From a virus (lineage: Duplodnaviria; Heunggongvirae; Uroviricota; Caudoviricetes), in IMG/VR virus record IMGVR_UViG_3300029241_000040: a stretch of 10,530 bases of DNA; one strand, written 5' to 3'. Positions 1 through 10,530 of this stretch are shown here, one piece after another. The translations under genes were made by a program, and so were the position numbers. The notes beneath the pieces are model-generated. The model did not search any database, was not told where the DNA came from, and was given only the letters and a program-made list of their open reading frames with translations. Every line of letters begins with the position of its first letter. Within the stretch, counting starts at the first letter, position 1.

Positions 1-83
1 ATCGGTGGAGCTGCATGACAAAGTCATCGGGCATTATCTGAACATAAAACACTATCAATAAGTTGGAGTCATTACCGCAATGA

Positions 84-902
<819 letters not shown>

Positions 903-926
903 GTCTTTAAGTGATAAGCATAAACC

Positions 927-958
927 GCAGCACGATCTTCTTGCATACGACGTGCTAC
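927..958. terminator. Possible bidirectional hairpin between convergent genes
   Basis: gcagcacg (927-934) and cgtgctac (951-958) form a 6-7 bp stem around a 16-nt loop in the 60-bp gap between two convergent stop codons. The stem is weak and there is no strong U-tract. Confidence 0.2.
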
Positions 959-962
959 GGTT

Positions 963-1517
963 TCATTTATCTCCGACCGGAAACTTCTTATACAGTGTCG
1001 ATATACCAACATCATAGATGATCGCCACCTTCTGGCGAGGAACGCCTGATGCAATTAATCGCCCGGCCTGCGCCCATTGTTCTGGTGTAAGTTTGGGACG
1101 ACGTCCCCCAATTCGTCCCTGTGCGCGAGCAGCTTCCAGTCCAGCTTTTGTTCGTTCAACAATCAGTTCTCGTTCCATTTCAGCCAGGGCACCCATCACA
1201 TGAAAGAAAAAACGCCCCATCGGTGTGCTGGTATCAATAGCATCCGTCAGGCTGCGAAAATTAACGCCACGTTCGCGCAACTCCTCAACCAGAATGACCA
1301 GATGCCGCATACTACGCCCCAGCCGATCCAGCTTCCAGACAACCAGAGTGTCACCTGCCGATAATGTCCTGAGCAGCTTTTTCAGTCCTGGTCTGTAGGA
1401 CTTTGTACCGCTTATCTTGTCTTCAAAAATCAGCTCACATCCTGCACAGTTCAGCGCATTACGTTGTAGATCGGTATTCTGGTCATTTGTTGATACACGT
1501 ACATAGCCAATAAGCAT
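963..1517 (-). CDS. pin: Serine-recombinase DNA invertase of the Pin/Gin/Hin/Cin family (184 aa)
   Basis: Translation from the internal Met reads MLIGYVRVSTNDQ...LVVWKLDRLGRS...GRIGGRRPKL...STLYKK, the hallmark resolvase/invertase catalytic domain with a C-terminal helix-turn-helix. The length matches Pin (184 aa). A GGGGGA Shine-Dalgarno-like sequence lies about 7 nt upstream of the ATG at 1517. The ORF-track start at 1553 would add 12 residues with no homology. Confidence 0.9.
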   Translation of the reverse strand: MLIGYVRVSTNDQNTDLQRNALNCAGCELIFEDKISGTKSYRPGLKKLLRTLSAGDTLVVWKLDRLGRSMRHLVILVEELRERGVNFRSLTDAIDTSTPMGRFFFHVMGALAEMERELIVERTKAGLEAARAQGRIGGRRPKLTPEQWAQAGRLIASGVPRQKVAIIYDVGISTLYKKFPVGDK

Positions 1518-1571
1518 GTTAAATCCCCCTGGTAAAAGCAGGAATGATGCCATTTGCTTGTTATTTCTTCA

Positions 1572-1597
1572 TTTTCATAAACGTTGGTTTGGGAGAA
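1572..1597. repeat. Invertase crossover site (hix/gix-like 26-bp site), pin-proximal
   Basis: ttttcataaacgttggtttgggagaa fits the recalled family consensus TTnTCnnAAACCnnGGTTTnnGAnAA. It matches the reverse complement of 3429-3454 at 20 of 26 positions, including 14 of 14 in the inner half. Confidence 0.8.
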
Positions 1598-2059
1598 GGT
1601 GCTCCAGCTATTGGCGTTCCGTTCTTCTGGCCGTCCGCTGCAATGCCAAATACTGTAATCGACAGCTGGTCCGGTATGGTGTTTTTGAAGTTCAACGGCG
1701 CGAAATTCTCTGCCACTGATTACCCTGTGCTGGCGAAAGTGTTTCCTTCGCTGGTATTACCTGAAGCCCGCGGTGATTTCATTCGTATCTGGGATGATGG
1801 TCGTGGTGTAGATAGTGGACGTGGATTACTTAGTACGCAGTCTGACCTGATGAAACAATTTACTTTGCAATACTACGGTCCTTCTGCTGGTACTGGAACA
1901 AGAACGGTTTTCGCCCTCCAGAGTAATGCGAACGGCATATATACGAGTGGTATTAGTCAGAATGATGGTAGTGGCACCGCTGCGGCTTTTAATGTACCAG
2001 GCGGCACCGAAACACGCCCACGTAACATTGCATTCAACTTTTTAGTAAGGGCTAAATAA
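1586..2059 (+). CDS. Silent alternative tail-fibre C-terminal segment (Sv'-like); promoterless until inversion
   Basis: Reading frame is open from the crossover site. The GLGE codons (ggt ttg gga gaa, 1586-1597) are identical to those at 3429-3440 on the minus strand, so inversion would fuse this segment in frame to the constant N-terminus. The first 14 residues of track ORF 1544-2059 lie before or across the site and are not expected to be translated. Confidence 0.7.
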   Translation, partial: GLGEGAPAIGVPFFWPSAAMPNTVIDSWSGMVFLKFNGAKFSATDYPVLAKVFPSLVLPEARGDFIRIWDDGRGVDSGRGLLSTQSDLMKQFTLQYYGPSAGTGTRTVFALQSNANGIYTSGISQNDGSGTAAAFNVPGGTETRPRNIAFNFLVRAK

Positions 2060-2652
2060 TGAAACCTGTTTTTGATAAAAATGGGCTGGCTACAGTACCG
2101 GGTGATATGCGTTGTTTTTATTATGATGCAGTAACGTCTGAATATACTGGCTGGTCTGATGAATATATTAATACTGGTGTAAGTATGCCCGCCTGTTCCA
2201 CTGGTATTGACCCGGGCGAATACATTCCGGGGAAAGTGGCAGTATTTACGGGTAAGGGATGGAGCCATGAAGAAGACCACCGCAATGAGACTGCTTACTC
2301 AATCGAAAATGGCGCAGCTGTTACAGTGGATTATATCGGTGCCATCAAAGACGGTTATGTCACGCTTTCACCGTTAACGCCATACGATAAATGGGATGGT
2401 GAGAAATGGGTGACAGATACTGAGGCACAGCATAGTGCCTCAGTAGACGCGGCAGAAGCACAGCGCCAGTCGCTGATTGATGCTGCAATGGCTTCCATCA
2501 GTCTGATTCAACTGAAATTGCAGGCCGGGCGGAAGCTGACGCAGGCAGAAACAACCCGACTTAACGCCGTGCTGGATTACATTGACGCGGTGACGGCAAC
2601 AGATACCAGCACCGCGCCGGATATCATCTGGCCTGAACAGCCGGAGGCGTAG
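2059..2652 (+). CDS. tfa: Tail fibre assembly chaperone, alternative cassette (Tfa/U'-like, 197 aa)
   Basis: ATG overlaps the stop of the preceding fibre segment (TAATG). The C-terminal motif DTSTAPDIIWPEQPE is characteristic of Mu U / Tfa chaperones. Confidence 0.8.
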   Translation: MKPVFDKNGLATVPGDMRCFYYDAVTSEYTGWSDEYINTGVSMPACSTGIDPGEYIPGKVAVFTGKGWSHEEDHRNETAYSIENGAAVTVDYIGAIKDGYVTLSPLTPYDKWDGEKWVTDTEAQHSASVDAAEAQRQSLIDAAMASISLIQLKLQAGRKLTQAETTRLNAVLDYIDAVTATDTSTAPDIIWPEQPEA

Positions 2653-3064
2653 GCCATTCAATATCTGGAGCACTGGAAGTATCGACCAGTTCCAGTGCGT
2701 CAAGATAATCCAGCCATAAATTATATTGCGCCAGTTCCTCACCTTTCAGACGACCAATAGCAGCCTTTCCTGGCCACTGCTTACTGTTAATATATTCATT
2801 AACTCGATTTATGAGTGCCTGTTTTTTTCGTTCCGCTTCTGACAGTTGTTCTTCATGAGTTAGCGGCGGTACGTCATCCCATGCAGGATAGCCATCATCA
2901 CCCGCAACTCTCACTTTCCCTGGAGGTGGGGACAGGTACTTAATAAATATATCCTCATCAACTTCAACTCCATTATGAGGCCATAACCCAGACTTCTTAT
3001 ACTGACTTTCCAGAGTAAATGGGTAAAACATATTAGTTTTAGCATCGTAAAGATATTTACTCAT
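2624..3064 (-). CDS. tfa: Tail fibre assembly chaperone, currently expressed cassette (Tfa/U-like, 146 aa)
   Basis: Start chosen at the internal Met (MSKYLYDAKTNMFYPF...), 1 nt downstream of the fibre stop codon. The C-terminal motif DTSSAPDIEWP matches the Tfa family. The ORF-track start at 3163 would overlap the fibre gene. Confidence 0.8.
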   Translation of the reverse strand: MSKYLYDAKTNMFYPFTLESQYKKSGLWPHNGVEVDEDIFIKYLSPPPGKVRVAGDDGYPAWDDVPPLTHEEQLSEAERKKQALINRVNEYINSKQWPGKAAIGRLKGEELAQYNLWLDYLDALELVDTSSAPDIEWPTPPAVQAR

Positions 3065-3065
3065 T

Positions 3066-3731
3066 TTATCTTCCTGTGGCAAACCAGCGGCAACCAGCGA
3101 CAGTTGGAACATTGAAGGATGGATTTCCTTTATCAAGAGATCCCAGGTTATCTGCCATGACACTTGAGTTAGTCAATTGATAGAATTGCCATACTGACAT
3201 TTTCCCTGGCACAGGAGCATGGTCATGTTCATTAATAGAAATGACGCCTGTCGGAAATGGGATAGGAAAATTAATCAAAACTTCATTTATTGTGGCCCCA
3301 GTTAGCCCCCATTGTTCAATATAACCATCCGGGCTTCGCCTCCATCCCGTCGTTGTATCTCCCCCACACTCCCACGCTGACATATCAGGAATTTGGTTTT
3401 GCCCGTTACCCACATCCCGTTTTGCCGCTTCTCCCAAACCAAGGTTTTCGAGAGCCGTTTTCACGGTGCCATCCGATTTGATATCGCCAAACGGATTCTT
3501 GCGGCTTAACAGCAGCGCACGAAGCGCGGTAAGCAGCTGGTCATGCCGCCCCTTCTCCAGGCTGGCACCGGATGCCTCCACCACGCCACAAAGCTCTTCC
3601 TGCAACATGTCAAAGTAGTCATCATCCAGATCGGTGGCAGGCGTGCCGGTCTGGGGGTTACCACGGGTAAAACCGTTCTTACCCGCGCCGAACTTATCCT
3701 TCTGCGCGGTTTTCGTGTCTATACGATGCAT
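3066..3731 (-). CDS. stf: Short tail fibre protein (221 aa; constant N-terminus of about 96 aa plus variable C-terminus in the current orientation)
   Basis: Position between the gp48-like gene and tfa. A crossover site lies inside the gene at the codons for ENLGLGE. The variable part sits inside the invertible segment. Length resembles the short fibres of e14-like elements. Confidence 0.8.
3429..3454. repeat. Invertase crossover site (hix/gix-like 26-bp site) inside the tail fibre gene
   Basis: ttctcccaaaccaaggttttcgagag closely resembles the recalled hixL sequence and the family consensus. It is in inverted orientation relative to 1572-1597. Confidence 0.8.
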
Positions 3732-3734
3732 GGA

Positions 3735-4319
3735 TTACTCCGGATATTTAAAAATTACGTAGGTATGCGACGGGCAGAGTTTGTTAAGCACACACTCGAC
3801 AACGGTGTCACCCCAGATACGCAGTGCGGAATCACAGGGATCGCCACATGTCATCCAGGTGGTGTTGGTGGCGGCTGGCATGTTGACCTGCCAGTAATAC
3901 CGCCATTCCGGCGCATTCACCGCGTCAGTACAGGCCGATGAGCAGGTGAACGTGCTTTTGTCGTATCGCGTGATGGTGGCATCTGGTCTGCCCAGGGCAG
4001 CAAGCTGTGCAAGATAAAAATCCTCGTTGATGCCGCCCGCCAGGTTAACCTTCGCATCCAGCCGTTGCTGACGCTGGCGAAGGGTCTGCGTTCCCGCCGG
4101 AATACATTCATCCGGCAGACCGCACAGACGCTCCCAGCGGTTTATCAGTTCAGTGGTGGTGCGCGGATCCAGCTCCCGCATCAGGGCATCCGCACGCTGA
4201 TGAACACGGGTTAATGACGGTGCCGCACCGGCAATCGCCGGATCGCTGGCTGACCACGCCGGACCGGGCGGCAACAGTGCCGATAACAGGCGGATGTAAT
4301 CATCGTTTGTCACGTCCAT
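3735..4319 (-). CDS. Mu gp48-like / YmfQ-like baseplate protein (DUF2313, 194 aa)
   Basis: N-terminus [22 protein letters not shown] is the typical start of this family. It lies directly upstream of the tail fibre gene. Confidence 0.75.
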
Positions 4320-5368
4320 GAAATCGTCCCCAGTACCGCCAGTTCGTTTTTCGCAATGGAGATATTGTCCACCGGTGCAAGCAACTGATGGCTGTATTCC
4401 CCGTTCGCACCGGAAATCGCCTCACTGATACGCGATACCTTCAGTTCTCCCTGCGGATAACCATCACGCAGCAGGAACGAACGCAACTCCGCGGTAATGG
4501 CAGCCCGTATTTCCGGTGTGTCCGGCGTCACGCGGATATGAAAATCCACCGTATGTGCCACCGGCCTGAATACATACAAATCAGAGCCTGCCACCGGGGC
4601 CAGTGGCCCGATATGTTGTCTTGCTGCCGTTTCCGTTGATTCTTCCGGAATGGGATTAATCAGGTCACTGCTGGCAATCATCACACCGACAGTTCCCGTT
4701 CCCATCCAGTGACGGTATGTCCATGCGCGGGTAATGCCGGGCACTTCTTTAGCCCAGACGACATAGTCCCCGTCAGCCCCGCCCTGAGGCGTCCAGTAAT
4801 ACCGCTCAATGACGCGGGCGCGCCACGTTTCCAGCTCTTCAGTATCAAATCCGCCTGTAAGGGTATCTGCCACGCCGGAAGACGGCAGACCATTAACCGG
4901 CGTGACCAGGATTAATGACGTACCGTCGTCAGCGTTACCGACCGCGCCTGCACTTGAGCAGGCGATCGGCACGCGCAGGACACCACCGGAGCTGGTTGCA
5001 TCGGCAGTTGCCGTGTACTGAACCAGGTCATCGCGCTGAATAACACTCCCGGCGGTCACCTTCAGGCCATCGCTGACACCTTCCCAACGCATATACCCGC
5101 TGGCAGCCGTGGCCCCCTTGCGCGGACACCGTTTCATCGCAGCATGTCGCGCCAGCCAGGACTCATCGCACAGGTCAGGCAGCATGTTCATTGCCAGATA
5201 ATCGATGTACCCGTAAACCGTATGCAGCGCCGCCGCATACACCTTTGCCCGCACGTCTTCATCCATGCGCCGGAGCGTGTCGCTGACGTCCAGCCTGGCG
5301 AATAAATCGTTACGGAGCATACTGATATTTTCTGCCAGCGTCGGGCGCTGAAATTCACTGTCCGCCAT
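4310..5368 (-). CDS. Baseplate J-like protein (Mu gp47-like, 352 aa)
   Basis: Size and position within the Mu-order baseplate block. Its stop region overlaps the downstream gene start by 10 nt. Confidence 0.75.
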
Positions 5369-5783
5369 GCGTTATCGCACTCCACAGATCATCAAAAGAA
5401 ATCATTACCGGTCCGTCACGACGCCAGAGGGTGATACTGTTACCCAGCTCATTAATCCCGGTGCGGCGGATATCCAGATCAATACGGGACACCACGCCGT
5501 CATCAATCATCCATTGCAGGCATTCGCGGATATACCCCCTTACTGTCTGCACCAGCTGATTGGTCAGTTTGCTGCGCTGAAGCAGCCACAGTCGGGAGCC
5601 GTAACGGTCATTCTGTACCGCAGGCCAGGTATCCCCCCACCATCCCATCGGGACGTCGGCGTTGTCATCAGGCTCCGCCCGCCGCCAGGTAAACAGGGAA
5701 ATCACCACGGCGCGGGTCAGCGGATCCAGCGGTGCGCTGGCGCAGGTGCGTTTACCGTTCACCGTCAGCCACAGTTCCATCAT
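5355..5783 (-). CDS. Mu gp46-like baseplate protein (gp25/W-like, 142 aa)
   Basis: Size and order match Mu gp46. It overlaps its neighbours, suggesting translational coupling. Confidence 0.7.
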   Translation of the reverse strand: MMELWLTVNGKRTCASAPLDPLTRAVVISLFTWRRAEPDDNADVPMGWWGDTWPAVQNDRYGSRLWLLQRSKLTNQLVQTVRGYIRECLQWMIDDGVVSRIDLDIRRTGINELGNSITLWRRDGPVMISFDDLWSAITHGGQ

Positions 5784-6328
5784 GCCTCCATCGCTTTATC
5801 CGGTTTGTCGGTGTTACTGCCCTGACCGTTCTCTCTGTGACGATGCCCGTTATAGGCAAGCCGCATCGCTGACATGGTAGTGCCGCTGGAGTCGCACAGG
5901 TCTTTCACCTGTCCTGTCACTTCCAGGTCCATTTCAAAACGTGCTTTAGGTGAATTGCGAAACGTGATCGTTTTACCTGCACCGTCCACCACGATCCCCT
6001 CCCGGGTCAGCGTCACAGACTGCCCCTGATCGTCATAGACAGCCACCTCACCCGTCTGCAACCCTTTCAGGCGGTAGCGCCGGTCCGACACCGTAACAAC
6101 CACCGCATGAGAACGGTCGCCATCCGGAAACAACACCACCGCTTCCGCACCGCTGTTTGCCCTTGCGGTAAAACCGTAGGGTTCAAGATGTTCAACCCCG
6201 GCTTTGGGTTCACCGGCAATCAGGGACACATCCACGGTCTGACATTTCGTGGCGGCACTGATGCTTTTCACCACTGCCCGCGCAATCAGGCCGAGAAGTT
6301 GTCGCTGCATGGCTTCAATCGTCCTCAT
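5780..6328 (-). CDS. Baseplate assembly protein V-like / Mu gp45-like spike (182 aa)
   Basis: Size and order match Mu gp45. Its start overlaps the upstream stop in an ATGA arrangement. Confidence 0.7.
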   Translation of the reverse strand: MRTIEAMQRQLLGLIARAVVKSISAATKCQTVDVSLIAGEPKAGVEHLEPYGFTARANSGAEAVVLFPDGDRSHAVVVTVSDRRYRLKGLQTGEVAVYDDQGQSVTLTREGIVVDGAGKTITFRNSPKARFEMDLEVTGQVKDLCDSSGTTMSAMRLAYNGHRHRENGQGSNTDKPDKAMEA

Positions 6329-7407
6329 CAGAACGGGTCCTCCTGTACTCTGGCTTTTTTCTTTTTCCGCGCGCCGGGGGCTTCGGGTTCAGGCAGATAA
6401 GCATCAGGCGGGCCGACACGGATTTCCGTCAGGGTGCCGTTCTGGTCCTGAGTAAACGTGACTTCCGAGACAAGCAGTTCGGTATTGTCGAAACCACAGA
6501 CCGGATCAAAGACAATCACCCGCTGGTTGGGCTGCCACAGCGTACCGTTACCCTGTCGCCAGCCCTGCACCACATAGGTGGTTTCATCCGTCCGCGCCGC
6601 CCGTTGTCGGGCTTCAAAGTCAGCACGCGCAATACAGCCTGCCCCCGTGGCCTGCCCTGTCTGCCTGATATACATCGGACGGTAACGGGCAATAAATGCG
6701 TCCTCTGTGCGGGCCCGCAGCGCGGTGGTGGTGACCTCACCGAAATCATCGTCGTTTCCGGCACGCTGCCCCGCCACCTGGTAAACAGAAAACCGCTCCC
6801 GGATACTCTTCTCCGTATCGCAGGAAAGGATGTTTTCCCCAAGTACCAGCGCGGTATGTGCCCGCGTTGAGCCAATACCGCCAATCACCAGCCTGCCGTG
6901 CGGGTCGTCGTAAGCCAGCGCCTGCTGCTGACCGAGTATTTTGTTTATTACCTCAATCACCGTTTCACCGTGATCAGGCTGAACATCAGGAATAACACCC
7001 GACGGCGCACCGCTGTTCACCACCTCAATGCCGAAAGGCGCAGCAAGCGCCTGCGCAATCTGCACCAGCGAGCGTCCGTTAAACTGTGTCGGTTCGGCTG
7101 CACAGTCAATCAGGTCAGCCGTCAGACTACGTCCGGCAATACCGGTGCTGACCGAACGGGCATCGTAACGAACGGGCGTCGCCTCCACCCAGCCGGTGAT
7201 CACCAGCTCATCACCAATCAGCACTTCCACTTTTGAACCGTTTTTAATGCGCGGCTGAAGCGTGGTGATACCCTCATCTCCCGGCCACTGGCGGGTGATC
7301 TCCACACTGAAATCCCGCGCCAGCCGTTCAATACCGGCACCGATGCGCACCGATGTCCAGCCATTCCACTCCCGGCCATTTACCCGTAGCGTGACATTGT
7401 CGTTCAT
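6328..7407 (-). CDS. Mu gp44-like baseplate hub protein (Phage_GPD-like, 359 aa)
   Basis: Size and order match Mu gp44 (P). The start overlaps the upstream gene by 4 nt. Confidence 0.7.
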   Translation of the reverse strand: MNDNVTLRVNGREWNGWTSVRIGAGIERLARDFSVEITRQWPGDEGITTLQPRIKNGSKVEVLIGDELVITGWVEATPVRYDARSVSTGIAGRSLTADLIDCAAEPTQFNGRSLVQIAQALAAPFGIEVVNSGAPSGVIPDVQPDHGETVIEVINKILGQQQALAYDDPHGRLVIGGIGSTRAHTALVLGENILSCDTEKSIRERFSVYQVAGQRAGNDDDFGEVTTTALRARTEDAFIARYRPMYIRQTGQATGAGCIARADFEARQRAARTDETTYVVQGWRQGNGTLWQPNQRVIVFDPVCGFDNTELLVSEVTFTQDQNGTLTEIRVGPPDAYLPEPEAPGARKKKKARVQEDPF

Positions 7408-8558
7408 TGCACTGGCACCTTCAGAGGGATCACCGGCACAAAGCCGGGATGCGTAATGGCATTACGCCGGATAATGTCCGCGTCACGCGCCGCGTTATCA
7501 AACCAGGTCGCCGCCAGCACCAGCGCGGGTAAAACCTCATCCGGCGTGCGCTGAATGATCCGTGCAGACTGTTCAAGGCGCGTGTTGATATCCGCATTCA
7601 GATCTGCTTTCACCCGGCGCAGCACCAGAAACAGCGCATCACTGGTTGTACGGGACAACTCCTTATCAATTGCCGTATTCAGTGTGTCGCGAATGTCGGT
7701 CAGTTCTTCCCACGTTGGCAGGTCAACCGTGTTTTTCACCGCCGGTGCATTGTTCAGTGCCGGATGCGTGACAGAAGGCCAGCCGGTGCTCTGCGCGGGT
7801 GTTGTTGACTGCCCCACTGTGGCATTCTGCATCACCGCGGAAGTTGTGGGCGCAGGCAATCGTGTGACGACATACGCCGCTTCGCTGATTGCGGTCGTAC
7901 GAAGGGTGCTGGCAACCACGTTACGCTGCTGCGTCGCCGTGGCGGTGGTTTTACTGTCCGTTTTCCAGACGCCGCGCGGTTGCAGATCGCTGCCAAGGCT
8001 GACACCGGAAAGCGTTTTGATCATGGTGACCAGGTCGCTGGCGTTACCATAAAGGCGTTTCCCGGTACGCCACATTTTCTGCACCTGCTCAACGAAATTT
8101 TTGCCTGACGATGGCGGCGGAAGAAGTACCGAGATATCCCCCTGCAACAGCCTGGCGGCATCCGATACGGCAGAATCCACCACTTTCATCGCATCAGAAA
8201 CATACCCAAGCATTGTGCCGACATTACCGACGACGTCGTTCTGCACAAAATCTGCCACGCCATCGATACTGAAACCGCTGAAGCTGTCACTGATGCAGTC
8301 ATCCAGTGCAGAACAGGATGACATCAGCGTCTGCGCCGTCGCCACGCCTGATGTGGGGTAAGAGAGATCTCCCGCTTCGACAAACTTCAGGTCAAAGCGG
8401 ACAATACGCCCTTCACTCTTCGATGTGCTGACCCGAACTTCCCCGTCAACACAGACTTTCAACTCACCGTATGTCGGGTGGACAAGCGTGCCGGGACCGG
8501 GTTTATTCAGCGCGTCAATCAGGCGATCGCGCTGGTCAAAGCAGTCATCTCCCACCAC
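7404..8558 (-). CDS. Mu N (gp43)-like DNA circularisation protein, N-terminally truncated remnant (GTG start; homology continues upstream to about 8660 with no start codon)
   Basis: QRDRLIDALNKPGPGTLVHPTYGELKV matches the conserved N-domain motif of the Mu N family. The same frame upstream reads ...AEDLGKVTF... back to a TAG at 8661-8663 without ATG, GTG or TTG. The expected ASFRGVPF / GGRR / HEFP N-terminal motifs are absent. Confidence 0.65.
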   Translation of the reverse strand: MVGDDCFDQRDRLIDALNKPGPGTLVHPTYGELKVCVDGEVRVSTSKSEGRIVRFDLKFVEAGDLSYPTSGVATAQTLMSSCSALDDCISDSFSGFSIDGVADFVQNDVVGNVGTMLGYVSDAMKVVDSAVSDAARLLQGDISVLLPPPSSGKNFVEQVQKMWRTGKRLYGNASDLVTMIKTLSGVSLGSDLQPRGVWKTDSKTTATATQQRNVVASTLRTTAISEAAYVVTRLPAPTTSAVMQNATVGQSTTPAQSTGWPSVTHPALNNAPAVKNTVDLPTWEELTDIRDTLNTAIDKELSRTTSDALFLVLRRVKADLNADINTRLEQSARIIQRTPDEVLPALVLAATWFDNAARDADIIRRNAITHPGFVPVIPLKVPVQ

Positions 8559-9247
8559 ATAAGCCGTGATGGACGGGCGGAAAGTGACTTTTCCCAGATC
8601 TTCGGCAGGTCTGGTACCAGCTTCTGGACATGATTCCGCGCCAGTGTGGTTGGTAAACGGCTAAATCGGTTTCCATTGCAACGCCCACAAATCTTATAAA
8701 CAGGCGTGCCATGAAGCCGGGTCCTTTTTTCATCCAGGACAATACCTTTACCCTTACACCCTCTGCACGCTGTGCTGACTTCTCCCTTACCATGACAATG
8801 CTGACATAGTTCCTTCACCCACTCTTCCTTGATAACAGATTCCCCGCTTCTGGAGTGTTTCACCACCTCGCGCAATACATTATGAAATCCAGTACCAGCA
8901 CAATGCTCACAGCGAGCCTTACTTGCCGCAGACCTGGAATAATCAGCAAAGGCAAAATTCACAAGGTAAGGGATGATCTGTAACCGGATTTCTTCACTCA
9001 ATTTGTTCAATGTCGGGTTATCCAGTGCCATCGCGTAATTGAGCAGACCTTCAATCGCAAACTGAGGATCCTGAACACCAACTTTTGCCAGGAATAAGGC
9101 AAACCCAAGCGGTGCTTTCGACTGCACCATCCCCTGCGCAGCCATCACATCTGTAATTGTTAAACCACCCGAGCCTGTCGCCGGTGCGTCATCACTCAAT
9201 TTTGGAGATTTTGGGGAGTAATATTTTGGTAAAGCTTCAAGGTTCAT
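8519..9247 (-). CDS. Q-like late antiterminator (QuuQ-type, 242 aa) with a cysteine-rich zinc-finger region
   Basis: Four CxxCxGxG-type repeats (CEHCAGTG, CQHCHGKG, CRGCKGKG, CGRCNGNR). Position downstream of DUF968 and KilA-C genes matches the lambdoid nin to Q arrangement. The sequence resembles my recollection of Qin-prophage QuuQ, which is unverified. Confidence 0.6.
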   Translation of the reverse strand: MNLEALPKYYSPKSPKLSDDAPATGSGGLTITDVMAAQGMVQSKAPLGFALFLAKVGVQDPQFAIEGLLNYAMALDNPTLNKLSEEIRLQIIPYLVNFAFADYSRSAASKARCEHCAGTGFHNVLREVVKHSRSGESVIKEEWVKELCQHCHGKGEVSTACRGCKGKGIVLDEKRTRLHGTPVYKICGRCNGNRFSRLPTTLARNHVQKLVPDLPKIWEKSLSARPSRLMWWEMTALTSAIA

Positions 9248-9260
9248 GCTCGTTCTCCAC

Positions 9261-10256
9261 TTACGCCAGTACGCCTATTGCCAGCGCACGATCGATAAAA
9301 CGAAATATCAGCTCCAGCTGGGAGCCATACTTCTCTTCAAATGCCACGGTATCCGCATGCAGCTCGTCGTGATGCTTTCTGCACAAAGGCAACACAAAGA
9401 GGTCATGCGCTTTTGTACCCATCCCACCCTGACCGTGGCCTATCAGGTGGTGGGGATCATCAGCAGGCTTTCCACAACATGCACACGGCTGTGTCTTAAC
9501 CCAGCGCGTGTACTTTTCATTAACCCAGCGGCGACGTTTTGGGCGTAACATAAAAGACTCCGGCGACTCCGGATCCACTTTCAGCGCCAGCACCTTTTTC
9601 GCCTTATCCTGGATGATGCTGGTGGCAGGAACCGAAGGCACAAGGTCACTTTCCCGGGTGACAGACGGCACAACAGGCTTCGGTAATCTCAGTGCCTTAC
9701 GGGCTGCACTTTCCGGTAAGGCATCCGCCAGGTCATTACGAATCAGCCACCAGCACAGTTCCGGCATTGTCACAACGTGACTGTCATCAAAACCGAGATC
9801 CCGACGCACAACAGACAACACCCAGCGGGCACAGTTATCCGTTGCCATTGATTCCAGCCGTTCCGTGAACTGATCGCGCAGCTGGTTATCGCAGTGCCAG
9901 CACAGACGGATTGCACCCGGAGCGTGTCGCATTGTGGTCATGTTCTCGCTGTGCCAGTCGGAATGAGGCCACTGGCAGCCTTTTTCACGAAGTAACCAGC
10001 TTTCAAGACATTCCACGCCACCAGCACGACGGATCACTGCCTCATTGCGGAACACGGCCAGAACGGCAGGATCATCCGCCAGCGGTTGTGATGCCGCCGG
10101 AACGGCACCACTGGCGAAAGATGAATAACGCTCCGGCTCAGGCTCCAGCAGGACACGCCCCTGCATAAACAGGGGCATCAGCTCTGAACCTGGTCTGAAC
10201 AATACGATCCCCATACGCGGGGCAATTTCAGGGGTCAGTAGTGCTCTCACGGTCAC
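9261..10256 (-). CDS. DUF968-family lambdoid prophage protein with a C-terminal HNH-like motif (YdfU-like, 331 aa)
   Basis: C-terminal CACCGKPADDPHHLIGHGQGG...LCRKHHDELH has the Cys and His spacing of an HNH / zinc-binding motif. It lies immediately upstream of the Q-like gene. Confidence 0.6.
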   Translation of the reverse strand: MTVRALLTPEIAPRMGIVLFRPGSELMPLFMQGRVLLEPEPERYSSFASGAVPAASQPLADDPAVLAVFRNEAVIRRAGGVECLESWLLREKGCQWPHSDWHSENMTTMRHAPGAIRLCWHCDNQLRDQFTERLESMATDNCARWVLSVVRRDLGFDDSHVVTMPELCWWLIRNDLADALPESAARKALRLPKPVVPSVTRESDLVPSVPATSIIQDKAKKVLALKVDPESPESFMLRPKRRRWVNEKYTRWVKTQPCACCGKPADDPHHLIGHGQGGMGTKAHDLFVLPLCRKHHDELHADTVAFEEKYGSQLELIFRFIDRALAIGVLA

Positions 10257-10257
10257 C

Positions 10258-10530
10258 TCAATGAACGGTATCGAGCAGCTTTAACAGCTCAGGGAATCGG
10301 GATTCGAAGAAATGCGGCTGCGTCTCGCGCGGATTTGCGGGACTGGTGATGTTCTTGCCGAACATGCAACCTTTCGCTGTCAGCGACCAGAATTTTTTGA
10401 TGTTGTTAATCGTGGTACGGCTGTATCGTTCGCGCTGCTCGACGATCCCCAGCTTCACCATCTGGTGATATGCCTGATTAGCTGTCAGGCGGATACCATA
10501 CTGCTTCAGCAGTGCACTCAGTGACAGCGT
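10258..10530 (-). CDS. KilA-C / antirepressor-like protein (Roi-like), C-terminal fragment; the gene continues past the right edge of the window
   Basis: The reading frame is open from the window edge: TLSLSALLKQYGIRLTANQAYHQMVKLGIVEQRERYSRTTINNIKKFWSLTAKG... It resembles the KilA-C domain in lambdoid nin regions. The ORF-track Met at 10461 is internal. Confidence 0.5.
   Translation of the reverse strand, partial: TLSLSALLKQYGIRLTANQAYHQMVKLGIVEQRERYSRTTINNIKKFWSLTAKGCMFGKNITSPANPRETQPHFFESRFPELLKLLDTVH

What the first reader, a model, noticed from the sequence alone, without database searches (positions are those of the whole stretch)
1572..3454. Complete, apparently functional tail-fibre inversion switch with the alternative cassette silent
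Two hix/gix-like 26-bp sites in inverted orientation flank about 1.86 kb. The tail fibre (3066-3731, minus strand) has a constant N-terminus of about 96 aa outside the segment and its variable C-terminus plus chaperone inside it. The opposite cassette (fibre C-terminus from 1586 and chaperone 2059-2652, plus strand) is in frame through identical GLGE codons at the crossover, so inversion would swap the fibre tip of 120 aa for one of 154 aa and swap its chaperone. The invertase is intact. The element therefore still carries a programmable host-range switch even though the prophage is defective.
Basis: partly seen in the sequence, partly recalled or inferred. Interest (0 to 1): 0.5.

Follow-up and report, generated by a model that had tools for sequence, protein, structure and literature searches.

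The report
E. coli e14-type Pin tail-fibre switch
This is the well-known Pin/P-segment DNA inversion switch of the E. coli e14 prophage family, intact by sequence and carrying different fibre tips from strain K-12, so it is real but ordinary.

Summary
Two 26-bp sites (1572-1597 and 3429-3454) lie in inverted orientation, each built as 12 + AA + 12. They are base-for-base identical to the two sites of the K-12 e14 P segment. They flank 1857 bp holding two convergent fibre-tip and chaperone cassettes. In-silico inversion keeps the frame: the 221-aa fibre becomes 254 aa. The adjacent invertase has 184 aa, is 95% identical to K-12 PinE, and keeps the catalytic and Fis-contact residues.

Inversion was not observed for this exact allele. 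However, sibling strains GPEC1209 and GPEC1210 carry a 96%-identical segment in opposite orientations between 100%-identical flanks. The predicted post-inversion junction is contiguous in 72 complete E. coli genomes. The second tip is 99% identical to the expressed tip of a P2-like prophage fibre.

Two parts of the interpretation need correction.
- "Silent" is unsafe. The pin-proximal cassette sits in an ORF with its own ATG and the same leader as K-12 stfE. A 2025 paper reports that the K-12 equivalent made by inversion (StfE2) blocks phage T2 adsorption.
- "Host-range switch" cannot apply to this element alone, because it lacks head, sheath, tube and terminase genes.

This is a known system and interest is low.

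The parts
963..1517 (-). pin (pinE-type serine DNA invertase), 184 aa
   Evidence: Pfam Resolvase E=4e-51 and HTH_7 E=5e-13. 174/184 residues identical to K-12 PinE. Aligns over residues 1-181 with Mu Gin structure 3UJ3, E=4e-93. Arg7, Ser9, Asp33, Arg42, Lys46, Lys47, Arg50, Gln150, Arg153 and Leu154 were checked and are present; Asp64, Arg65 and Arg68 are read from the KLDRLGRS motif in the translation. RefSeq annotates it as pinE in TUM10008.
1433..1496 (-). Inferred Fis-dependent recombinational enhancer inside the 5' end of pin (pin nt 22-85). Candidate 15-bp Fis cores are GTATCAACAAATGAC and GTGCAGGATGTGAGC.
   Evidence: The cores match the G-N13-C Fis pattern and lie 49 bp apart. Third-codon positions are invariant across pin, K-12 pinE, Mu gin, P1 cin and a P2-like invertase at 6/10 sites in the cores against 9/56 elsewhere (cores were chosen partly post hoc). 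ATCTA and TAATG lie between the cores, as ATTTA and TAATG do in the hin enhancer (PMC3798978). This is inferred, not shown.
1544..1585 (+). Start and leader of the pin-proximal ORF (MMPFACYFFIFINV...). It lies outside the invertible segment and reads through the site into whichever cassette is next to pin.
   Evidence: ORF 1544-2059. The leader is identical to K-12 stfE. After inversion it yields a 138-aa (137 aa from the second ATG) leader + gp53-like protein. RefSeq annotates that product in GPEC1210 and EC0885.
1572..1597 (-). pin-proximal 26-bp recombination site, TTCTCCCAAACC AA CGTTTATGAAAA, with core at 1584-1585
   Evidence: 2 matches, 0 expected. Identical to the pin-proximal site of K-12 e14.
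1585..3441 (.). Invertible segment, 1857 bp from core to core
   Evidence: The homologous 1851-bp segment is inverted exactly at these repeats between GPEC1209 and GPEC1210.
1586..2059 (+). Second fibre tip cassette: GLGE + 153 aa, stfE-type, with a weak tail-collar match
   Evidence: In frame after inversion. 156/157 residues identical to residues 277-433 of the fibre of a P2-like prophage in EC0885. About 56% identical to K-12 stfE. Pfam Collar E=0.0098, below the cut-off.
2059..2652 (+). Chaperone of the second cassette (tfaE-type), 197 aa
   Evidence: Pfam Caudo_TAP E=6e-28. 62% identical to K-12 TfaE. Its start overlaps the tip's stop codon (TAATG).
2624..3064 (-). Chaperone of the cassette now joined to the constant part (tfaP-type), 146 aa. 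Its 3' end overlaps the other chaperone gene by 29 bp.
   Evidence: Pfam Caudo_TAP E=8e-35. 58% identical to K-12 TfaP.
3066..3440 (-). Fibre tip now joined to the constant part (gp53-like C-terminal domain)
   Evidence: Pfam Gp53-like_C E=3e-10 over residues 134-221. Same position and domain type as the K-12 StfP tip, but the tip sequences have diverged strongly.
3429..3454 (+). Distal 26-bp recombination site, TTCTCCCAAACC AA GGTTTTCGAGAG, with core at 3441-3442, inside the fibre gene
   Evidence: Identical to the site inside K-12 stfP (ycfK).
3443..3731 (-). Constant N-terminal part of the fibre (about 97 aa), outside the segment
   Evidence: Window 3419-5097 is 98% identical to K-12 e14 DNA spanning the stfP 5' end, ymfQ and jayE.

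Best explanation
This is the P-segment switch of an e14-family defective prophage of E. coli. It is a Fis/enhancer-dependent serine DNA invertase system of the Hin/Gin/Cin/Pin class.

**Inferred mechanism.** Pin dimers bind the two inverted 26-bp sites. The sites synapse together with a Fis-bound enhancer inside the 5' end of pin. All four strands are cut at the central AA/TT dinucleotide, one half of the tetramer rotates 180 degrees, and the strands are religated. This inverts 1857 bp.

**Consequence.** One site lies inside the fibre gene at codons Leu97/Gly98. Inversion therefore swaps the fibre's C-terminal tip (gp53-like, 120 aa, against stfE-type, 153 aa). It also swaps the cognate chaperone immediately downstream, while the 97-aa N-terminus stays constant.

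**The other position.** The cassette not joined to the fibre N-terminus lies next to pin. There it is fused to a short leader with its own ATG, so it may be expressed and need not be fully silent.

**Trans action.** Related invertases elsewhere in a genome can probably also flip the segment.

**Shown here:** the sites, the frames, the domains, identity to the K-12 system, and both orientations in close relatives.

**Inferred:** activity in this particular strain, the enhancer position, and expression of either product.
For: - The sites occur exactly twice against 0 expected, in inverted orientation with identical AA cores. They are identical to both K-12 e14 sites.
- e14 inversion has been shown experimentally in K-12 (PMC4272514; PMC12529663).
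- Pin is 95% identical to PinE and aligns with Gin over residues 1-181. The catalytic Ser9 and the invertase-specific basic and Fis-contact residues are present (the criteria come from PMC3798978).
- Both fusions are in frame.
- GPEC1209 and GPEC1210 have flanks 100% identical over 4281 and 4373 bp, and the 1851-bp segment between the repeats is inverted.
- The present junction is found in 8 complete genomes and the predicted inverted junction in 72.
- The second tip is 99% identical to an expressed fibre tip in a P2-like prophage with a full tail module.
- The same 14-mer site core flanks the segment in all six fetched loci.
- Synonymous sites are conserved at the candidate Fis cores.
Against: - No data show inversion of this exact allele. 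The collection genomes that match the present junction at 98.4% identity or better (TUM10008, E4, A22, MIN10, FDAARGOS_1250) have the window's orientation.
- Pin has Tyr41 where K-12 PinE has Glu and Gin has Asp. The effect is unknown.
- No pin promoter was detected by the consensus scan. It found 5 sites against 4.1 expected, none placed to drive pin.
- The enhancer is inferred, not demonstrated.
Confidence: 0.85

Rival explanations
1. The selected function today is phage defence by phase variation, not host range. Inversion places the gp53-like tip behind the pin-proximal leader. That makes a 138-aa StfE2-like protein that interferes with adsorption of incoming phages, as reported for K-12 e14. 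The inversion mechanism is the same as in the best explanation; only the biological role differs.
For: - Kirigo et al. 2025 (PMC12529663) report that PinQ or PinE inverts the e14 P segment, that plasmid-produced StfE2 cut T2 adsorption to 3-12%, and that a cured strain with the segment about 83% inverted gave no T2 plaques.
- The window has the same leader and the same arrangement: the gp53-like tip is on the fibre and the stfE-type tip is next to pin.
- The StfE2-like ORF forms on inversion.
- The element cannot build virions.
- pin sits beside defence genes: a GIY-YIG nuclease here, then a restriction-modification system and AbiTii in TUM10008.
Against: - The gp53-like tip here has diverged strongly from the K-12 StfP tip, so any anti-phage specificity is unknown.
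- The K-12 evidence for which protein is responsible rests on plasmid expression and docking.
- No promoter or good ribosome-binding site was found for the 1544 ORF. AGGA abuts the first ATG and lies 3 nt from the second.
Confidence: 0.25
2. The switch is a frozen relic. The sites and reading frames are preserved by recent descent, but the segment no longer inverts in this strain, because pin is not expressed or because Tyr41 or enhancer changes impair it.
For: - All closest genomes show one orientation.
- Pin carries Tyr41.
- There are 7 nucleotide differences from K-12 in pin nt 60-141.
- The prophage is decaying.
Against: - Both 26-bp sites are identical to functional K-12 sites.
- All checked catalytic and Fis-contact residues are present.
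- A close relative inverted even with its own pinE truncated, so invertases acting in trans suffice.
- From memory, Hin has Asn at the position of residue 41, so it is not an invariant acidic residue.
Confidence: 0.12
3. The inverted repeat is a chance match or an assembly artefact with no recombination function.
For: None found.
Against: - No matches were expected by chance.
- The sites are identical to characterised sites.
- The same architecture occurs in thousands of E. coli genomes.
Confidence: 0.01

Closest known systems
P segment / PinE of cryptic prophage e14, E. coli K-12 (stfP-tfaP / tfaE-stfE-pinE; Plasterk & van de Putte 1985; Mehta et al. 2004; Goldberg et al. 2014, PMC4272514; Kirigo et al. 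2025, PMC12529663)
   Same: - Both 26-bp sites are identical.
- Pin is 95% identical.
- The constant fibre N-terminus, ymfQ and jayE DNA are 98% identical.
- Gene order is the same, the chaperones converge with the same 29-bp overlap, and the pin-proximal leader is the same.
- The orientation matches the MG1655 reference, with the gp53-like tip on the fibre.
   Different: - The variable tips and the chaperone N-terminal parts are different alleles. Tips beyond GLGE have diverged strongly for the gp53-like cassette and are about 50% identical for the stfE-type cassette; the chaperones are 58-62% identical.
- The segment is 1857 bp against 1797 bp.
- The neighbour of pin is a GIY-YIG gene, not mcrA.
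- The baseplate module is more complete.
- In TUM10008 the element sits at a tRNA-Ser, not at icd, and has CPS-53-like early genes.
G segment / Gin of phage Mu and C segment / Cin of phage P1
   Same: - The same class of invertase: Gin aligns over residues 1-181, E=4e-93.
- The same logic: a constant fibre N-terminus, two alternative tips each with its chaperone, and the invertase gene beside the segment.
- The DNA of the candidate Fis cores is invariant.
   Different: - Mu and P1 are viable phages in which inversion really changes host range.
- Their segments are larger (about 3 and 4.2 kb, from memory), and their tips are unrelated in sequence to the ones here.
Invertible fibre segments of P2-like prophages of E. 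coli (e.g. EC0885 locus L004; phage 500465-2)
   Same: The whole cassette pair plus invertase is 97% identical in DNA (H33). The second tip is 99% identical. The site core is the same.
   Different: There the constant part is a 276-aa P2 gpH-type N-terminus, in a prophage with a full tail module. The same invertible module has been recombined onto different fibres.
Hin/hix flagellar phase variation in Salmonella
   Same: 26-bp sites with a 2-bp core, a Fis-bound enhancer inside the invertase gene, and conserved Lys47/Lys48/Arg51 and Gln151/Arg154/Leu155 equivalents (PMC3798978).
   Different: Hin flips a promoter and its own gene lies inside the segment. Here a coding-sequence fusion is exchanged and pin lies outside the segment.

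Membership tests
Fis/enhancer-dependent serine DNA invertases (Hin/Gin/Cin/Pin) | Small serine recombinase: N-terminal resolvase catalytic domain plus C-terminal HTH, with the catalytic Ser and Arg/Asp residues | tested here: met
   PF00239 E=4e-51 and PF02796 E=5e-13. Arg7, Ser9, Asp33 and Arg42 were checked; Asp64, Arg65 and Arg68 are read from the KLDRLGRS motif. Matches Gin structure 3UJ3 at E=4e-93.
Fis/enhancer-dependent serine DNA invertases (Hin/Gin/Cin/Pin) | Invertase-subclass residues that contact Fis and the enhancer (Hin Lys47, Lys/Arg48, Lys/Arg51; Gln151, Arg154, Leu155) | tested here: met
   Pin has Lys46, Lys47, Arg50, Gln150, Arg153 and Leu154, numbered one lower than Hin. 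The criteria come from PMC3798978.
Fis/enhancer-dependent serine DNA invertases (Hin/Gin/Cin/Pin) | Two 26-bp sites in inverted orientation, each with imperfect 12-bp half-sites around an identical 2-bp core | tested here: met
   1572-1597 (-) and 3429-3454 (+), both with an AA core; 0 matches expected by chance.
Fis/enhancer-dependent serine DNA invertases (Hin/Gin/Cin/Pin) | Recombinational enhancer in cis with two Fis sites about 48 bp apart | tested here: inconclusive
   Candidate cores at pin nt 22-36 and 71-85 are 49 bp apart and score only 7-8 of 11 specified consensus positions. They coincide with peaks of synonymous-site conservation across pin, gin and cin: 6/10 against 9/56, p=0.007, chosen partly post hoc. 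Fis binding itself cannot be tested here.
Fis/enhancer-dependent serine DNA invertases (Hin/Gin/Cin/Pin) | The segment is actually found in both orientations | tested here: inconclusive
   Not seen for this allele, because the closest genomes all have one orientation. Seen for a 96%-identical segment between GPEC1209 and GPEC1210 with identical flanks, and in K-12 (PMC4272514 and PMC12529663).
e14 P segment (K-12 type) | Gene order pin / site / stfE-type tip / tfaE / tfaP / stfP tip / site / stfP N-terminus / ymfQ, with K-12-type sites | tested here: met
e14 P segment (K-12 type) | Same prophage: integration at icd, mcrA next to pin, K-12 cassette alleles | tested here: not met
   The near-identical TUM10008 locus lies at a tRNA-Ser beside pao genes. 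It has a GIY-YIG gene in place of mcrA, and the tips have diverged. It is a mosaic relative, not the K-12 element itself.
Phage tail fibre with a Tfa-type chaperone | A fibre C-terminal receptor-binding domain followed by a Caudo_TAP assembly protein, in both cassettes | tested here: met
   Gp53-like_C E=3e-10, and Caudo_TAP E=8e-35 and 6e-28. The second tip has only a sub-threshold Collar match, but it is 99% identical to a P2-like prophage fibre tip.

The most novel reading that the evidence does not exclude
In e14-family remnants the switch may no longer serve a virus. It may instead be a host-retained, phase-variable anti-phage device. Inversion would move a gp53-like receptor-binding tip behind the hydrophobic pin-proximal leader, giving a 138-aa StfE2-like protein. 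The great allelic diversity of tips among E. coli strains (here strongly diverged from K-12) would then reflect diversifying selection for which incoming phages are blocked. This allele would protect against a different set of phages than the K-12 one.
Probability: 0.2. Interest if true: 0.45.

Novelty: already known. Interest (0 to 1): 0.12.

Why it matters
It matters little as a discovery. The e14 Pin/P-segment switch has been known since the 1980s and RefSeq already annotates pinE and the flanking genes here.

It is useful as a clean annotation:
- exact site and crossover coordinates;
- proof that both fusions are in frame;
- a natural sibling-strain pair showing inversion at these sites even when the local pinE is truncated.

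The only forward-looking angle comes from the 2025 report that e14 inversion creates an adsorption-blocking protein. If that generalises, alleles like this one are ready-made test cases for whether tip diversity sets defence specificity.

Tried and rejected
- **Fis consensus scan of pin.** It gave many weak G-N13-C matches and is not decisive alone. It became useful only when combined with cross-family synonymous-site conservation.
- **Sigma-70 and terminator scan of 900-4400.** The counts were no higher than in shuffles (5 against 4.1, and 4 against 3.2). No convincing promoter was found for pin or for the 1544 ORF, so expression of either remains open.
- **Searches of isolated phage genomes for the two tips.** The best hits were only 46% and 65% identical (for example phage 500465-2 and mEp043). 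The alleles are therefore known from prophages in E. coli genomes, not from characterised phages.
- **Search for a third site, which would allow multiple inversions.** None was found with up to 3 mismatches.
- **Search for the exact window allele in the inverted state.** The best inverted-junction hits are about 96% identical and none is 99% or better.
- **Chance inverted repeat.** Considered and rejected.
- **Technical.** Loci L003 and L004 were not visible to the Python sandbox. L003 was refetched as L005.
Full report
**What is there.** The window is E. coli DNA. Positions 77-10497 are 99.84% identical to the chromosome of strain TUM10008, and positions 900-3800 are 100% identical to TUM10008 and to poultry strain E4. 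RefSeq annotation of that locus reads, in window order:
- a LEM-3-like GIY-YIG protein;
- pinE;
- a partial "phage tail protein";
- two convergent tail-fibre assembly genes;
- a gp53-like-domain fibre;
- ymfQ;
- baseplate J/gp47, GP46, baseplate V and a baseplate assembly protein;
- an N-terminally truncated Mu-type DNA circularization gene, directly abutting a C-terminally truncated antiterminator gene.

No terminase, portal, capsid, sheath, tube or tape-measure gene is present.

**Check of the observation.** The best inverted repeat in 900-4400 is 1579-1598 / 3428-3447. Written as 26-mers, the sites are TTCTCCCAAACC-AA-CGTTTATGAAAA at 1572-1597 on the minus strand, and TTCTCCCAAACC-AA-GGTTTTCGAGAG at 3429-3454 on the plus strand. 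A degenerate 26-mer built from these two sites, with up to 3 mismatches allowed, finds exactly these two, while none of 200 shuffles gives a match. The two AA cores are 1857 bp apart.

The fibre (3066-3731, minus strand, 221 aa) crosses the distal site at codons Leu97/Gly98. In-silico inversion yields an uninterrupted 254-aa protein: the same first 101 residues through GLGE, then the 153-aa tip encoded from 1586 on the plus strand. The result is the same wherever the break is placed inside the identical 15-nt stretch.

Pfam assigns the following:
- Gp53-like_C to the current tip;
- Caudo_TAP to both chaperones (2624-3064 minus strand, 2059-2652 plus strand);
- Resolvase + HTH_7 to the 184-aa invertase (963-1517, minus strand).

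The only slip is 154 aa where the count is 153.

**What it is.** Both 26-bp sites are identical, base for base, to the two sites of the P segment of cryptic prophage e14 in E. coli K-12 MG1655. The invertase is 174/184 identical to K-12 PinE. The DNA from the distal site through ymfQ into jayE is 98% identical to e14.

The gene order, the 29-bp overlap of the two chaperone genes and the short ORF leader next to pin are also the same. So is the orientation: the gp53-like tip is on the fibre and the stfE-type tip is beside pin.

What differs is the variable material. The gp53-like tip has diverged strongly from K-12 StfP beyond GLGE. The other tip is about 50% identical to stfE. The chaperones are 58-62% identical to TfaP and TfaE, with only their C-terminal parts conserved in DNA.

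This is therefore an allelic version of a long-known system. The references are Plasterk & van de Putte 1985 and Mehta et al. 2004, as cited in PMC4272514. That paper also demonstrated coexisting orientations of the e14 segment in clonal MG1655 cultures by sequencing and PCR.

**Is it competent?**

*Invertase.* It aligns with the Mu Gin crystal-structure sequence over residues 1-181 (E=4e-93). Arg7, Ser9, Asp33 and Arg42 were checked and are present, and Asp64, Arg65 and Arg68 can be read from the KLDRLGRS motif in the translation. McLean et al. (PMC3798978) describe residues conserved specifically in Fis/enhancer-dependent invertases: Hin Lys47, Lys/Arg48, Lys/Arg51, Gln151, Arg154 and Leu155. 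The equivalents here are Lys46, Lys47, Arg50, Gln150, Arg153 and Leu154, and all are present. One unusual residue is Tyr41, where K-12 PinE has Glu and Gin has Asp. Its effect is unknown.

*Enhancer.* It could not be tested directly. A consensus scan is weak on its own. However, aligning the first 200 nt of this pin, K-12 pinE, Mu gin, P1 cin and a P2-like prophage invertase gives a clearer picture. Nt 22-35 (GTATCAACAAATGA) and most of nt 71-85 (GTGCAGGATGTGAGC) are invariant, including at synonymous positions. Third-codon positions are invariant at 6/10 sites there against 9/56 elsewhere. That p-value (0.007) is soft, because the cores were chosen partly post hoc. The spacer between the cores carries ATCTA and TAATG, much like the ATTTA and TAATG noted between the two Fis sites of the hin enhancer. 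I therefore place the enhancer at about window 1433-1496, as an inference.

**Evidence from nature.** An in-silico inverted copy of the region was searched against 5,426 complete E. coli genomes.
- **Sibling strains.** Chicken isolates GPEC1035 and GPEC1210 match the inverted form across both junctions, while GPEC1209 matches the window's form. GPEC1209 and GPEC1210 have the same neighbours (prfC, a DinI-like gene) and the same protein accessions. A direct comparison shows 4281 bp and 4373 bp of 100%-identical flanks, with the 1851 bp between the repeats inverted. That segment is 96% identical to the window's.
- **Inversion despite a truncated pinE.** In both strains pinE is cut down to its first 237 nt. 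The flip therefore most likely needed an invertase supplied in trans. The remnant retains the putative enhancer. This fits Kirigo et al. 2025, who found that PinQ of prophage Qin inverts the e14 segment in K-12.
- **Junction counts.** 500-nt probes show the present junction contiguous in 8 genomes and the predicted post-inversion junction contiguous in 72.
- **The second tip is in use elsewhere.** The cassette pair plus invertase also occurs at 97% DNA identity in a P2-like prophage with a complete tail module (EC0885). There the window's second tip, 156/157 identical, is the expressed end of a 433-aa fibre. The second cassette is thus a working fibre tip, not debris.

For the exact window allele, however, the closest genomes (98.4% or better at the junction) all show the same orientation. 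Inversion at this locus is therefore inferred, not observed.

*"Silent".* The cassette next to pin lies in an ORF starting at ATG 1544 or 1547. Its leader, M(M)PFACYFFIFINVGLGE, is encoded by the pin upstream region and the site itself, and is identical to the K-12 stfE leader. After inversion this ORF would encode a 138-aa protein made of the leader plus the gp53-like tip. RefSeq annotates that product in GPEC1210 and EC0885.

Kirigo et al. report several results for K-12:
- The equivalent protein, StfE2, reduces T2 adsorption to 3-12% when produced from a plasmid.
- A plasmid-cured strain with about 83% inverted segments gives no T2 plaques.
- Wild-type cultures go from about 30% to about 81% inverted during T2 challenge.

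I found no convincing promoter or strong ribosome-binding site for this ORF. Expression here is therefore open, but "silent" should not be assumed.

*"Host-range switch".* The element has no virion genes and a truncated late antiterminator. By itself it has no host range to program, and even the "on" fibre may be poorly transcribed. The plausible present-day roles are a decaying relic that still flips, a source of fibre modules for recombination with incoming phages, or the defence role proposed for K-12.

**Verdict.** The feature is real and the coordinates are accurate. The mechanism is the classical Pin/P-segment inversion, with 0.85 confidence in the identity and mechanism and somewhat less in activity in this strain. 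It is already known and interest is low. The most novel reading not excluded is that this allele is a phase-variable adsorption-blocking defence with a specificity different from K-12's (probability about 0.2).

Noticed in passing
window 1-76: This is the right end of an IS1 element, and the match to TUM10008 starts only at position 77. The source strain therefore has an IS1 inserted just left of the GIY-YIG gene, an arrangement not found exactly in the complete-genome collection.
   Followed up: partly
window 129-902 (+); L001 5972-12003: A 257-aa LEM-3-like GIY-YIG protein sits next to pin where K-12 e14 has mcrA. In TUM10008 it is followed by a cytosine methyltransferase, a type II restriction endonuclease, a DUF6650 protein and an AbiTii protein. 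Together they form a defence-gene cluster at the pin end of the prophage.
   Followed up: partly
window about 8603-8606 (genes 7404-8603 and 8606-9247, minus strand): This is a deletion junction. A C-terminally truncated antiterminator gene abuts an N-terminally truncated Mu gp43-like DNA circularization gene. The deletion accounts for the loss of the lysis, head and most tail genes. It differs from the deletions in K-12 e14, and the baseplate genes (gp44- to gp48-like) are all intact here.
   Followed up: partly
L002 4000-4236 and L005 3964-4200 (GPEC1209 / GPEC1210): The segment has flipped between these two sibling strains even though their pinE is truncated to 237 nt. This implies an invertase acting in trans. 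The remnant keeps the region proposed here as the Fis enhancer.
   Followed up: partly
L003 5668-6414 (WP_264117929.1) and many hits: RefSeq names the post-inversion fibre (constant N-terminus + stfE-type tip) "integrase" in many E. coli genomes. This is an annotation error that spreads through a shared protein accession.
   Followed up: no
window 1395-1397 (Pin codon 41): Pin has Tyr41 immediately before the conserved Arg42, where K-12 PinE has Glu and Mu Gin has Asp. The functional effect is unknown.
   Followed up: no
window 1544-1597 (+): The pin-proximal ORF leader MMPFACYFFIFINVGLGE is strongly hydrophobic. It is encoded by the pin 5' untranslated region plus the recombination site itself. 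Whether it acts as a membrane anchor or export signal for the fused tip is untested.
   Followed up: no
window 2624-2652; repeat 2571-2588 / 2697-2714: The two chaperone genes converge and overlap by 29 bp. The nearby 18-nt inverted repeat reflects their shared C-terminal LDY(I/L)DA motif, encoded on opposite strands, and is not a recombination site.
   Followed up: partly
L001 21821-24531: In TUM10008 the e14-type late module is joined to CPS-53-like early genes (yfdR, yfdS, yfdT) and an integrase next to a tRNA-Ser gene, rather than to the icd-integrating module of K-12 e14. The prophage is a mosaic.
   Followed up: no
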